Below are positions 34,601 through 37,600 of a DNA stretch of 64,000 nucleotides, in pieces. The stretch is taken from IMG/VR virus record IMGVR_UViG_2880395615_000008. One strand, given 5' to 3'. The stretch is from a virus (Duplodnaviria; Heunggongvirae; Uroviricota; Caudoviricetes). The number at the start of each line of letters is the position of its first letter. Within the stretch, counting starts at the first letter, position 1. Position numbers: made by a program.

Positions 34601-37600
34601 TTGAAAGCGAGGTTTTTACAAACAAGATCCAGTATCCGGATGGTAAGCCGCCAGTGTGGGCAAAGTGCACAAAAGGCGTGTATCCGTCTTACTGGGAGGA
34701 ATGGAAAAAAGTCAGGGAGGTGGTAAAAGTTGCCTGTCCGGAGTGTGGCGGAAAGGGTGAGGTTTCCACCGCCTGTAAGGATTGCCGTGGGCGTGGTGTC
34801 GCCATTCATCGTGAAGAGTCGGTAAAACGTGGTATGCCTGTTATCAGAGACTGCCAGCGTTGTGGTGGTCGTGGCTGTGAAAGACTACCATCAACGGAGG
34901 CATTTAATGCCATATGTAATGTAACCGATGCCATATCTCTTGATACATGGAAAAAAACAGTTAAACGTTTTTACGATACGCTGGTGGTGCAGTTTGATAT
35001 TGAAGAAGCATGGGCAGAACAACAACTGAAAAAGGTGACCAGATAGCTTTGTTGATTTTTCCCGAATCTGTGGTAAATTTGCCCTAACGATGGGCGTTTT
35101 ATGCCTGACGTTAGAAGATTTTTTACACCCCGCCGCATGGCGGGTTTTTTATGACTGAAATCGCGTCAGTACAGTAAACGCGCTGGTGGCGGTGAATACC
35201 GGTCTTTCAGCTTGCTGGCTTTTTTGACAAGAGTTATTGGTGTGTCACGTTAACCGAAAAAGGGAAAAAGACATGCTGAAACAGCAGGATATGACAGAAA
35301 CCGCCAGAGCAGTGTTTAATGAATTAAGCGTCACCGAACCGGCGACAGTCGGGGAGATTGCGCAGAATACTTACCTTTCACGCGAACGCTGCCAGTTAAT
35401 ACTGACCCAGCTTGTTATGGCGGGTCTGGCAGACTATCAGTTCGGTTGTTACAGACGCCTTCAGTCCTGAAGGCTTTTTTATTTGTGGTAAATGGGCGGC
35501 TGGTGGGTGTTAGGGGCACTCACCAGCCATCTGCTCATGCGTCTGGATCACAAGCAAACCTCAGGCCCACTGCTTTGCGCAAAAGCAGAATGAGCCTATC
35601 AGAGACAGGCTTAATGATCCATGTTTAACACTGTAAAAATATCCAGTTGTGAGTTGATCAACGCTGACTGCCTGGAATTTATCCGGTCGTTACCCGAAAA
35701 TTCTGTTGACCTGATAGTCACGGACCCGCCGTACTTTAAAGTGAAGCCTGAGGGCTGGGATAACCAGTGGAAGGGCGACGATGATTACCTGAAGTGGCTG
35801 GACCAGTGTCTGGCGCAGTTCTGGCGGGTGCTGAAACCTGCCGGAAGTCTTTACCTGTTCTGTGGCCATCGCCTGGCATCTGACATTGAAATCATGATGC
35901 GTGAACGCTTCAGTGTGCTGAACCATATTATCTGGGCGAAGCCGTCCGGACGCTGGAACGGGTGCAACAAGGAAAGCCTGAGGGCGTATTTCCCCGCCAC
36001 AGAGCGCATTCTGTTCGCGGAACATTATCAGGGGCCGTATCGTCCGAAAGATGCCGGGTATGAGGCGAAGGGCAGGGCACTGAAACAGCATGTGATGGCT
36101 CCGCTGATTTCTTACTTTCGTGATGCGCGTGCTGCTCTGGGGATAACGGCAAAACAGATAGTGGATGCCACAGGAAAGAAAAACATGGTGTCGCACTGGT
36201 TCAGTGCCAGTCAGTGGCAGCTACCGAACGAAAGCGATTATCTGAAATTACAGGCGCTGTTTGCCCGGGTGGCAGAAGAGAAGCATCAGCGGGGTGAACT
36301 GGAGAAGCCCCACCACCAGCTGCTGGAGACGTATACTTCACTGAACCGGCAGTATGCGGAACTACAGAGTGAATATAAGCATCTGCGGCGGTATTTTGGC
36401 GTGACGGCGCAGGTGCCGTACACGGATGTGTGGACGCATAAACCGGTGCAGTACTATCCCGGGAAACATCCGTGCGAAAAACCGGCAGAAATGCTGCAGC
36501 AGATAATCAGTGCGAGCAGTCGTCCGGGTGACCTGGTTGCAGATTTCTTCATGGGGTCGGGTTCGACAGTCAAAGCCGCGATGGCGCTGGGGCGTCGTGC
36601 AACTGGCGTTGAGCTGGAGACTGAACGTTTTGAGCAGACGGTCAGGGAAGTACAGGATTTAGTCAGTCAGAACGGATGATATTGCAGAATTAACCGGGTA
36701 TCAGGTACGCCCCGAAAATTTTAAATGTCTCACAATTCAGACGGTTGACAGTTGTCTGGTTTGCGGGGAGTTTGTTAAAAGAAACTGGCATGGTGAATCC
36801 CCCTGAGCGGAGGGGCATATCAGCGCAGGTGTTTCTACTCTATCCTTTCTGTGCGGGTTCAGGTGCTGATACTGAACTCACCGGGAGGCACCCGGCACCA
36901 TGCATATGGTTAACAGACACGTAGCGAAGCCCCTCTCCGGAGGGGCTTTTTTTATGGGCAAAAAAAGCCCGCGCTGGGAGACGCGGGCGGCAAGGAATAA
37001 ACAACAAAACGTGAAGTAATATTTCAGCTGGCGAATAATACCCCATGGTAATCACTCTGCGCAACTGCGCGGCCTTTTTCGAATTGCGGGCTGTAAGTCT
37101 CCCTTCTGCCATTGTCCTGTAACTTCCGGACTTCAGCCCGCTCTTTATCTGATTCAGTACACTATCCCGGCCGGGAGGATTCATGACATTTAAACATTAC
37201 GATGTGGTCAGGGCGGCATCGCCGTCAGACCTTGCTGATGCACTTGCGCAAAAAATTCGTGAAGGATGGCAACCATACGGTGGGCCGTTTTCTTCGTATA
37301 CGGATGATGGCGCAGCACTTATTCAGGCGATTGTCGCAGAAGGTGATGTGAGCACACCTGTTGTGGTGAAGCCGACAGGTGGAGAAGGTGCAGTAATCAG
37401 TGCCACCAGCGACCCGGAGTATTACTTTGTTGTGGTTCTGGCGGGGCAGTCAAACAGCATGGCATATGGTGAAGGCCTTCCGCTGCCGGAGACATATGAC
37501 CGTCCGGACCCGCGTATTAAGCAGCTGGCGCGCCGCAGTACGGTGACACCGGGCGGTGTCGCCTGTAAATATAACGACATCATTCCGGCGGACCATTGTC

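What the first reader, a model, noticed from the sequence alone, without database searches (positions are those of the whole stretch)
35621..36679. Orphan beta-class DNA methyltransferase under late control
DPPY precedes FxGxG, the motif order of beta-class N6A/N4C enzymes, and no restriction endonuclease gene is adjacent. It may protect phage DNA from host restriction or methylate host DNA.
Basis: partly seen in the sequence, partly recalled or inferred. Interest (0 to 1): 0.4.

Follow-up and report, generated by a model that had tools for sequence, protein, structure and literature searches.

The report
Prophage late-operon non-specific adenine methyltransferase
This is an intact copy of a well-studied prophage gene family (M.EcoGI/M.EcoGII) whose enzyme methylates almost any adenine in DNA; it sits at the head of the phage late operon and stays silent until induction, so the gene is ordinary, but the conserved RNA leader in front of it appears undescribed.

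Summary
Window 35621-36679(+) is an intact 352-aa beta-class amino-methyltransferase (Pfam N6_N4_Mtase, E 5.6e-44), with DPPY at aa 35-38, FMGSG at aa 310-314 and no endonuclease nearby. It is not an unknown orphan. It is about 94% identical to M.EcoGII, the characterised non-specific m6A methyltransferase, and 99.1% identical to the phage 1720a-02 enzyme. The same family occurs in 1987 of 5426 complete E. coli genomes.

Late control is supported by anatomy. A lambda-like PR' promoter, an AACGAT pause element and a tR' hairpin lie just after the Q gene. A second terminator follows. In Stx phages the stx genes lie just downstream of this gene. In 35 of 42 related loci a holin gene follows directly.

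The gene is silent in lysogens and the enzyme has no motif.

Beyond the finding, the roughly 140 nt before the ATG form a conserved structured leader. It is 84% identical across genera, while four-fold degenerate sites are 38% identical. It shows compensatory base changes and has no Rfam match. A 65-aa winged-helix ORF often sits upstream. The gene is already known; the leader is the only new lead.

The parts
34225..35046 (+). Q antiterminator gene (273 aa)
   Evidence: Pfam PF03589 Antiterm E 7.6e-50; PHROG anti-termination protein Q-like; RefSeq 'antitermination protein'
35052..35079 (+). PR'-like late promoter: -35 TTGATT (35052-57), 16-nt spacer, extended -10 TGgTAAATT (35071-79)
   Evidence: Read. 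The core GGTAAATTTGNCNNAACGATGGG is shared with lambda PR'. It is unique in the window, with 0 expected by chance. It falls below the threshold of the generic promoter scan (8 of 12).
35086..35091 (+). AACGAT, -10-like sigma70 pause element at the predicted +1 to +6
   Evidence: Identical hexamer at the same distance from TAAATT as in lambda PR'. Its function is inferred from established lambda biology.
35129..35150 (+). tR'-like intrinsic terminator (CCCGCCGCATGGCGGG + T6), about 60 nt after the predicted start
   Evidence: Terminator scan; RNA fold. The hairpin is conserved in Stx2a_WGPS2, phiP27 and mEp460 and marks the start of the shared cassette.
35273..35470 (+). 65-aa stand-alone winged-helix ORF that frequently accompanies the MTase
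   Evidence: RefSeq CDS; weak Pfam TrmB hit E 0.002; phrog_331. AF2 pLDDT 90 with a helix-helix-helix-beta-hairpin fold. Foldseek best hits are IclR/MarR wHTH domains. It is detected by tblastn ending about 150 nt before the MTase ATG in about two thirds of the enterobacterial loci and upstream of 115 of 121 leader matches in viral contigs.
35457..35480 (+). second intrinsic terminator (GCCTTCAGTCCTGAAGGC + T-run), overlapping the small ORF stop
   Evidence: Terminator scan. A hairpin plus U-rich tract is present just 5' of the leader in most related loci, with different stem sequences (read by eye).
35479..35620 (+). conserved structured leader abutting the MTase ATG; no Shine-Dalgarno sequence and an in-frame TGA at -6
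   Evidence: Covariance-model hit 129.5 bits. Structure and covariation. Selection test. No Rfam match.
35621..36679 (+). M.EcoGI/GII-family beta-class N6-adenine DNA methyltransferase gene (352 aa)
35723..35734 (+). catalytic motif IV, DPPY (aa 35-38)
   Evidence: invariant in 24 homologues
36548..36562 (+). SAM-binding motif I, FMGSG (aa 310-314)
   Evidence: F310, G312 and G314 invariant in 24 homologues
36759..36959 (+). STnc100 sRNA with its terminator (36926-36949), 80 nt after the MTase stop
   Evidence: Rfam RF02076, 148 bits against a gathering score of 47. In Stx2 phages it lies 75 nt after stx2B (PMC12370729).
37183..39129 (+). NanS-p-type sialate O-acetylesterase gene (late-region cargo)
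   Evidence: Pfam DUF1737 + SASA + DUF6645
39809..40562 (+). holin (39809-40024) and lysozyme (40029-40562), the start of the lysis cassette
   Evidence: ORFs; RefSeq names

Best explanation
The ORF encodes an M.EcoGI/M.EcoGII-type beta-class N6-adenine DNA methyltransferase. Its inserted helical recognition domain imposes little or no sequence specificity.

It is carried as a solitary gene near the head of the late operon of a lambdoid prophage of E. coli O157:H7, integrated at ompW.

In the lysogen, transcripts from the constitutive PR' promoter stop at tR' (35129-35150). Any read-through meets a second terminator (35457-35480). The toxic enzyme is therefore not made.

After induction, Q-modified RNA polymerase reads through both terminators. 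It transcribes the small winged-helix ORF, the structured leader, the methyltransferase gene, STnc100, the esterase gene and the lysis genes.

The enzyme then methylates adenines throughout replicating phage DNA, and incidentally the doomed host's DNA and possibly its RNA. Progeny DNA would then resist adenine-sensitive restriction systems in the next host.

What is shown and what is inferred:
- Shown here: gene identity, motif order, family membership by sequence, gene order and the promoter/terminator anatomy.
- Taken from the literature on 94%-identical enzymes: non-specificity, toxicity and silence in lysogens.
- Inferred: Q-dependent expression of this copy and the anti-restriction benefit.
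For: Identity of the enzyme:
- Pfam N6_N4_Mtase E 5.6e-44.
- 327 of 349 residues (94%) match the M.EcoGII sequence printed in PMC11551740 Table S1. That text is machine-read, so the true identity is probably slightly higher. Only 6 of 78 residues differ in the published recognition domain, residues 160-237.
- 99.1% identical to the phage 1720a-02 enzyme, which Murray et al. name as a close M.EcoGII homologue (PMC5778455).
- M.EcoGI and M.EcoGII differ from each other by 16 of 349 residues, and both are non-specific (PMC5778455).
- A reconstructed ancestor that is only 70% identical to the window protein is also non-site-specific (PMC11551740).
- The exact protein is on at least 1000 contigs.

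Solitary status:
- RefSeq annotation within +/-18 kb shows no endonuclease.
- Neighbouring ORFs give no endonuclease or defence hits.

Late-operon position:
- PR' core, pause element and tR' lie directly after Q. The same arrangement occurs in L007 and L048.
- No plus-strand promoter-like site lies between tR' and the ATG at the scan's threshold.
- Order in Stx2a_WGPS2 and phiP27: small ORF, MTase, tRNAs, stx. In mEp460 the holin starts 4 nt after the MTase.
- STnc100 follows the MTase here as it follows stx2B elsewhere (PMC12370729).
- The first downstream ORF is a holin in 35 of 42 genome loci.
- The first sizeable upstream ORF is a Q protein of one of four families in 17 of 35 loci.

Silence and toxicity: PMC5778455, PMC12707154, PMC6602927.
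Against: - No expression or methylation data exist for this copy.
- The M.EcoGII comparison rests on a machine-read sequence. The exact look-up of my corrected version failed.
- My AlphaFold model of the enzyme was poor (mean pLDDT 66), so the fold of the recognition domain was not confirmed here.
- The PR' assignment is by similarity to lambda, although this Q belongs to a different Pfam family (PF03589) from lambda Q.
- The prophage may be defective, in which case Q-driven expression may never occur.
- An anti-restriction benefit has not been demonstrated for any member of this family.
Confidence: 0.85

Rival explanations
1. A sequence-specific orphan methyltransferase, Dam- or CcrM-like, that marks a defined motif and acts as an epigenetic regulator in the lysogen.
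For: Many phage orphan MTases are site-specific. The nearest solved structures are all site-specific enzymes. The NCBIfam equivalog for YhdJ matches partially.
Against: Similarity to the site-specific enzymes is confined to the catalytic blocks, residues 8-115 and 281-343. All NCBIfam scores are far below their cut-offs (114.9 against 292). Over the full length, including the recognition domain, the protein is about 94% identical to non-specific M.EcoGII. Homologues give no motif in lysogen methylomes (PMC6602927).
Confidence: 0.05
2. The modification half of a restriction-modification system whose endonuclease lies elsewhere or has been lost.
For: PADLOC files it under Type II MTase models. 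In one related locus (L051, Rosenbergiella) a BsuBI/PstI endonuclease-domain ORF lies upstream.
Against: No endonuclease is annotated within +/-18 kb. In 35 of 42 loci the downstream neighbour is a holin. Upstream neighbours are Q proteins or varied cargo, and only 1 of 35 is an endonuclease. A non-specific methylase would not define a restriction specificity.
Confidence: 0.03
3. An intact but functionally dead passenger gene of a defective prophage, never expressed and drifting.
For: Many O157 lambdoid prophages are defective. A tail assembly gene is a pseudogene in the identical record. The family is not expressed under laboratory growth (PMC5778455).
Against: The ORF and all catalytic residues are intact and invariant across genera. 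Codon positions 1+2 are 84% identical against 38% at four-fold degenerate sites across 1081 locus pairs, which indicates strong purifying selection on both the protein and its leader. The same gene is present in plaque-forming or inducible phages (1720a-02, phiP27, mEp460, Stx2 phages).
Confidence: 0.07
4. Its main substrate in vivo is RNA, or host DNA as a means of host takeover, rather than phage DNA.
For: M.EcoGII methylates RNA and DNA:RNA hybrids in vitro (PMC5778455, PMC11551740).
Against: Its initial rate on RNA is about 100-fold lower than on DNA (PMC11551740 Table S3, seen). There is no in vivo evidence either way.
Confidence: 0.05

Closest known systems
M.EcoGII and M.EcoGI (E. coli O104:H4 C227-11 prophages; GenBank EGT69837.1)
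   Same: Beta-class, DPPY then recognition domain then FxGxG. About 94% identity over 349 residues. Prophage-borne, solitary and of similar length.
   Different: 352 aa instead of 349, with a different C-terminal tail (...DLVSQNG against ...DLIV) and about 20 substitutions. This allele has not been assayed. The genomic context of M.EcoGII itself was not retrieved here.
MTases of phage 1720a-02, Stx2a/Stx2c/Stx2d-converting phages, phiP27 (L24) and mEp460 (gp53)
   Same: 99.1%, 98%, 88% and 82% identity respectively. All share the cassette of terminator, small ORF, leader and MTase on the late side of Q.
   Different: In those phages tRNA genes and stx, or the holin directly, follow the MTase. 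Here STnc100 and the NanS-p esterase gene follow. The Q families differ.
Phage Mu Mom with Com
   Same: A works-like comparison only. Mom is a late, broad-spectrum DNA-modifying enzyme that is toxic, silent in lysogens (PMC12707154) and held down after transcription. A small protein gene and a structured mRNA region sit just upstream of it (from established knowledge of com-mom).
   Different: It is not homologous and has different chemistry. The 65-aa ORF here is a winged helix rather than a zinc finger, and it is not detected in about a third of genome loci. It therefore cannot be an obligatory activator.
Site-specific beta-class enzymes with solved structures (entries 8urk/9c3u, M.RsrI, CcrM, DpnA, M.MboIIA)
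   Same: Catalytic Rossmann blocks, E 1e-25 to 1e-15.
   Different: Nothing in them matches residues about 116-280. Those named here are sequence-specific.
Lambda PR'-6S RNA-tR' and the Stx-phage PR'-StxS-tR' units
   Same: TAAATT -10, AACGAT pause element at the same spacing, and a short terminated transcript (PMC7547250).
   Different: The predicted terminated transcript is only about 60-65 nt, against 194 nt in lambda (my own knowledge) and 258 nt in Stx phages (PMC7547250). The Q family is different.

Membership tests
Beta-class N6A/N4C amino-methyltransferases (Pfam PF01555) | Catalytic motif IV (D/S-PP-Y/F) lies N-terminal to SAM-binding motif I (FxGxG) | tested here: met
   DPPY at aa 35-38; FMGSG at aa 310-314
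Beta-class N6A/N4C amino-methyltransferases (Pfam PF01555) | Significant match to the family profile and to solved members | tested here: met
   PF01555 151 bits against a cut-off of 26.7; PDB hits E 1.7e-25 and weaker
M.EcoGI/M.EcoGII family of non-specific adenine MTases | Full-length sequence similarity that includes the central recognition domain | tested here: met
   327 of 349 identical to the printed M.EcoGII sequence, with 6 of 78 differences in residues 160-237. 99.1% identical to the 1720a-02 enzyme.
M.EcoGI/M.EcoGII family of non-specific adenine MTases | Helical recognition domain with a helix-turn-helix motif inserted between the catalytic halves | tested here: inconclusive
   The AF2 model shows helices at 145-254, but mean pLDDT is 66 and drops below 50 in the linkers. 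The published model (PMC11551740) was not reproduced.
M.EcoGI/M.EcoGII family of non-specific adenine MTases | Methylates adenine in any sequence context | not testable with these tools
   Needs expression followed by SMRT/nanopore sequencing or LC-MS
Type II restriction-modification system | A cognate restriction endonuclease gene adjacent to the MTase gene | tested here: not met
   None within +/-18 kb. Neighbours give no hits. Neighbours across the family are holins and Q proteins.
Lambdoid late operon (Q-antiterminated PR' transcript) | Lies on the same strand between Q/PR'/tR' and the lysis cassette | tested here: met
Lambdoid late operon (Q-antiterminated PR' transcript) | Transcript appears only after Q-dependent read-through | not testable with these tools
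   Needs RNA-seq or Term-seq with and without induction, or a Q mutant
Any described RNA family (Rfam 15), for the leader at 35479-35620 | Match to a curated covariance model | tested here: not met
   No hit in 35470-35620 at E <= 1
Riboswitch or RNA switch, for the leader | Conserved structure with covariation, plus alternative pairings that involve the translation start region | tested here: inconclusive
   P1-P4 are supported (8 pairs and 30 cells with compensatory changes; 0 of 500 shuffles reach this). The alternative helices are compatible with all sequences but show no double changes. The ligand or binding factor is unknown.

The most novel reading that the evidence does not exclude
The roughly 140-nt leader fused to every gene of this family is an undescribed cis-regulatory RNA. 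It folds as a three-way junction plus a hairpin, has no Shine-Dalgarno sequence, and can form mutually exclusive pairings, one of which covers positions -8 to -3 before the AUG. On this reading it gates translation of a lethal, non-specific methyltransferase in response to a phage factor, a host factor or a metabolite. It would add a post-transcriptional lock to the two transcriptional terminators. The frequently associated 65-aa winged-helix protein could be its modulator.
Probability: 0.4. Interest if true: 0.55.

Novelty: already known. Interest (0 to 1): 0.3.

Why it matters
For the gene itself the value is correct annotation. It should be labelled as an M.EcoGI/GII-type non-specific adenine methyltransferase rather than as a 'site-specific DNA-methyltransferase'. 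Methylome studies of lysogens should not expect a motif from it.

The family is in more than a third of complete E. coli genomes. In Stx phages the stx genes lie just downstream of it. Its expression therefore probably travels with toxin and lysis gene expression, and it may help Stx and other lambdoid phages cross restriction barriers.

The anatomy described here offers a concrete, testable explanation for how such a toxic enzyme is kept silent. It consists of the PR'/tR' unit, a second terminator and a selected, structured leader without a Shine-Dalgarno sequence. No paper found in the searches run here deals with this.

The leader may also matter for people who express M.EcoGII as a chromatin-footprinting or RNA-methylation tool.

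Tried and rejected
- **Clean M.EcoGII sequence.** Only a machine-read copy was available. An exact look-up of my corrected version failed, and none of 149 retrieved proteins is identical to it. Identity is therefore quoted as about 94%, a lower bound. Fang et al. 2012 (PMC3879109) is not held, and the Murray et al. supplement is not held.
- **tRNA genes.** Stx phages have tRNA genes after the MTase. None is present in this window.
- **STnc100 as the PR' leader transcript.** I first considered this, which would have placed the MTase upstream of PR'. I rejected it because STnc100 lies downstream of stx2B in Stx phages (PMC12370729) and a lambda-like PR'/tR' unit sits right after Q.
- **A pairing that sequesters the start codon.** Two candidate helices near the ATG (UGAGC/GCUUA and AUCAG/CUGAU) show no covariation.
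- **The small ORF as an obligatory Com-like activator.** Rejected because it is not detected in about a third of genome loci that still keep the leader.
- **The small ORF as a DpnI-type m6A-sensing winged helix.** No such hit in the top 50 Foldseek matches.
- **An internal sigma70 promoter in the leader.** None at the scan threshold. By eye only a weak TTTAGC-18-TATCAG.
- **A coding leader.** Rejected because of the in-frame TGA at -6 and TAG TGA further upstream (read).
- **AlphaFold model of the MTase.** Too poor to use for fold searches.
- **Literature search** linking M.EcoGII with a leader or riboswitch found nothing.
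Full report
**1. The observation**

Window 35621-36679 (+) is a single ORF of 352 codons, from ATG to TGA. 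DPPY sits at residues 35-38. The only F.G.G match, FMGSG, is at residues 310-314. Motif IV therefore precedes motif I, which is the beta-class order.

The match to Pfam N6_N4_Mtase is E 5.6e-44 over residues 29-340. PADLOC gives a Type II MTase model at E 5e-164.

Solved beta-class enzymes match in two blocks, residues 8-115 and 281-343. They are entries 8urk/9c3u, M.RsrI, CcrM, DpnA, M.MboIIA and M.PvuII. About 165 residues in the middle are unmatched, which is where a recognition domain would lie. NCBIfam equivalogs for site-specific enzymes all score far below their cut-offs.

**2. What the gene is**

The DNA is 100% identical to a 'DNA-methyltransferase' CDS (WP_000483497.1) in several E. 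coli O157:H7 chromosomes. Related copies occur in 1987 of 5426 complete E. coli genomes, with up to 7 copies per genome. The exact protein is on at least 1000 contigs.

The literature identifies the family. M.EcoGII and its near-twin M.EcoGI come from prophages of E. coli O104:H4 C227-11. They are beta-class enzymes that methylate adenine in any context. They also act on RNA and DNA:RNA hybrids, harm the cell when expressed constitutively, and are not expressed in the lysogen (PMC5778455; the review PMC12707154 says the same).

The M.EcoGII sequence printed in the supplement of PMC11551740 is 327 of 349 residues (94%) identical to the window protein. Only 6 differences fall in residues 160-237, the published recognition domain. 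That text is machine-read and contains obvious errors, so 94% is a lower bound. My corrected version was not found by exact look-up.

Three further points place this allele inside the clade whose tested members are non-specific:
- M.EcoGI and M.EcoGII differ from each other by 16 residues, and both are non-specific (PMC5778455).
- A reconstructed ancestor (SUPREM) is only 70% identical to the window protein and is still non-site-specific (PMC11551740).
- The window protein is 99.1% identical to the phage 1720a-02 enzyme, which Murray et al. cite as a close homologue.

Non-specificity of this copy is therefore a strong inference, not a measurement. My own AlphaFold model was poor (mean pLDDT 66) and I did not use it.

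**3. Solitary status**

The RefSeq annotation of the identical region shows a lambdoid prophage next to an ompW remnant. It has integrase, excisionase, exonuclease, dicB, repressor-region genes, replication genes, hokD, DUF968, RusA and Q. These are followed by a 65-aa ORF, the methyltransferase, an esterase, a holin, a lysozyme, terminase, portal, capsid and tail genes. No endonuclease is annotated within 18 kb on either side.

The immediate neighbours give no nuclease or defence-system hits.

Across 42 species-level genome loci the first ORF downstream is a holin in 35, from four holin families. The first sizeable ORF upstream is a Q antiterminator of one of four families in 17 of 35 loci. 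Only one locus (L051) has a BsuBI/PstI nuclease domain there. The family is solitary.

**4. Late control**

Directly after the Q stop codon (35046) lies TTGATT, a 16-nt spacer, then TGgTAAATT (35052-35079). Seven bases later comes AACGATGGG. Lambda PR' reads GGTAAATTTGACTCAACGATGGG, and the window reads GGTAAATTTGCCCTAACGATGGG. The shared pattern occurs once in the window, with none expected by chance.

In lambda, TAAATT is the -10 element and AACGAT is the -10-like element that causes the sigma70-dependent promoter-proximal pause where Q loads. This is established knowledge, not tested here.

A GC-rich hairpin plus T6 follows at 35129-35150. This predicts a terminated transcript of about 60-65 nt, analogous to lambda 6S RNA and to StxS (PMC7547250). 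A second terminator lies at 35457-35480. The generic scan finds no plus-strand promoter-like site between tR' and the ATG. The same arrangement of -10, pause element and terminator precedes the cassette in L007 and L048.

Synteny agrees:
- In Stx2a_WGPS2 and phiP27 the order is small ORF, MTase, tRNA genes, stx2AB.
- In mEp460 the holin starts 4 nt after the MTase stop.
- STnc100 lies 80 nt after the MTase here. It lies 75 nt after stx2B in Stx2 phages (PMC12370729).

The MTase gene thus lies in the late region between Q/PR' and the lysis genes. In Stx phages the stx genes sit in the same region, just downstream of it. Late, Q-dependent expression is well supported by anatomy, but no transcript data were available.

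**5.

A REBASE search would return 'non-specific'.

A methylome comparison of a lysogen with a cured strain would show nothing. The gene is off in lysogens and the enzyme has no motif. This is what was reported for homologues in O111 STEC (PMC6602927). 'No attributable motif' is therefore not a refutation.

**6. What else is there: a conserved cassette and a structured leader**

Alignment with three phages shows that homology begins at the tR' hairpin. It runs through the small ORF and the 150-nt spacer into the MTase.

The conservation of the leader is extensive:
- In 45 of 47 enterobacterial loci, blastn finds the roughly 130 nt before the ATG at 72-97% identity, mostly 80-84%. The genera include Mixta, Kosakonia, Klebsiella, Salmonella, Buttiauxella and Rosenbergiella.
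- It is always flush with the ATG.
- A 20-mer from it found 121 sites in viral contigs. In 114 the MTase starts 129-131 nt (one case at 135 nt; one 5'-truncated gene hit) after the start of the match. Three sites are at contig ends. In four the homology breaks about 50 nt into the leader and a different gene follows.
- Over 1081 locus pairs, the leader is 83.7% identical, the same as codon positions 1+2 of the MTase gene (83.6%). Third codon positions are 46.9% identical and four-fold degenerate sites 38.3%. The leader is under selection about as strong as that on the protein.

RNAalifold and a curated structure give four helices:
- P1: UGGGC/GCCCA, which encloses P2 and P3.
- P2: GGCUGG-UGGGUG/CACCCR-CCAGCC.
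- P3: UUCGCU/AGCGAA.
- P4: GCUUU/AAAGC.

On the MAFFT alignment 94.6% of cells pair, against 29-49% when the partners are slid. There are 7 pairs and 27 cells with changes on both sides, against 2.2 and 5.9 in shuffles, with 0 of 500 shuffles as high. One P3 pair runs C-G 24, A-U 10, U-A 9 and U-G 4.

A covariance model built from this alignment also finds the element upstream of a Zooshikella homologue that is only 49% identical in protein (E 3e-10). On the model-fitted alignment the figures are 96.8% paired, 8 pairs and 30 cells, with 0 of 500 shuffles as high. This alignment leans towards the structure by construction.

G-U pairs favour the sense strand. There is no Rfam match at E <= 1. 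There is no Shine-Dalgarno sequence, and an in-frame TGA lies two codons before the ATG.

Single-sequence folds (z about -3.7) prefer a different arrangement. In it AUGGGC pairs with GCUCAU, and GGUCA plus AAGC pair with GCUU plus UGAUC, just before the AUG. These helices are compatible with all sequences (99.3% and 96.1% paired) but show no double changes. A two-state switch is therefore a hypothesis only.

**7. The small ORF**

The 65-aa ORF (35273-35470) belongs to a narrow family, apparently confined to Enterobacterales, that NCBI calls TrmB-like. Its model is a three-helix winged helix (pLDDT 90). It is closest to IclR/MarR DNA-binding domains (TMq 0.84).

tblastn detects it in about two thirds of the genome loci. 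It is upstream of 115 of 121 leader matches in viral contigs. Where it is not detected, the leader and a hairpin just before it remain. It is therefore an accessory, not an obligatory partner.

**8. Comparison and verdict**

By sequence the gene is a member of the M.EcoGI/GII family. It works like other late, broad-spectrum phage DNA modifiers. Mu Mom is the closest functional analogy: toxic, silent in lysogens and tightly locked.

The gene is already known and correctly, if vaguely, annotated, so interest in the finding as stated is low. The multilayer lock, and in particular the selected structured leader, is the part I could not find described. It deserves experimental follow-up.

Noticed in passing
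window 35479-35620 (+): A roughly 140-nt non-coding leader is flush with the MTase ATG. It is conserved at about 84% across genera, while four-fold degenerate sites are 38% identical. It has a three-way junction plus a hairpin with compensatory changes, no Shine-Dalgarno sequence and no Rfam match. It also occurs before a Zooshikella homologue (L057 4824-4959).
   Followed up: partly
window 35273-35470 (+): A 65-aa stand-alone winged-helix ORF (TrmB/IclR-like) ends about 150 nt before the MTase. tblastn detects it in about two thirds of genome loci and upstream of 115 of 121 leader matches in viral contigs. The family appears confined to Enterobacterales. Its function is unknown.
   Followed up: partly
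window 35052-35150 (+): A lambda-like PR' (-10 TAAATT), an AACGAT pause element and a tR' hairpin lie just after a PF03589-type Q gene. They predict a constitutive terminated RNA of about 60-65 nt, comparable to 6S RNA or StxS.
   Followed up: partly
window 36759-36959 (+): A strong STnc100 sRNA match (148 bits) lies 80 nt after the MTase stop and ends at the terminator at 36926-36949. In Stx2 phages the same sRNA follows stx2B. A convergent terminator on the minus strand lies at 36988-36967.
   Followed up: partly
window 10412-10534 (-), 24511-24562 (-), 31676-31850 (+): Other Rfam matches above the gathering score: isrC (150 bits), DicF (75 bits) and sok (112 bits, next to hokD).
   Followed up: no
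window 39131-39207 (-): A weak Esr41-like match (30.9 bits, far below the gathering score of 102) lies just after the esterase gene.
   Followed up: no
window 3527-9271 and 54985-60729 (+): Two sets of tail ORFs have the same lengths (232, 334, 225 and 1175 aa). The window therefore spans the end of one lambdoid prophage and nearly all of a second one, whose integrase is at 20005-21135 (-).
   Followed up: no
L092, L130, L156, L175 (viral contigs): The small ORF and the first roughly 50 nt of the leader are kept. Homology then breaks, and an AT-rich 237-aa gene replaces the MTase. This is a cargo swap with its breakpoint inside the leader.
   Followed up: partly
L051 4139-4643 (Rosenbergiella collisarenosi): The ORF upstream of the MTase leader carries a BsuBI/PstI restriction endonuclease domain (E 9e-62). 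It is the only nuclease neighbour among 35 loci.
   Followed up: partly
window 35615-35619 and related loci: A GATC (Dam) site lies 2 nt before the MTase ATG. It is kept in nearly all aligned leaders and lies within the possible GGUCA/UGAUC pairing.
   Followed up: no
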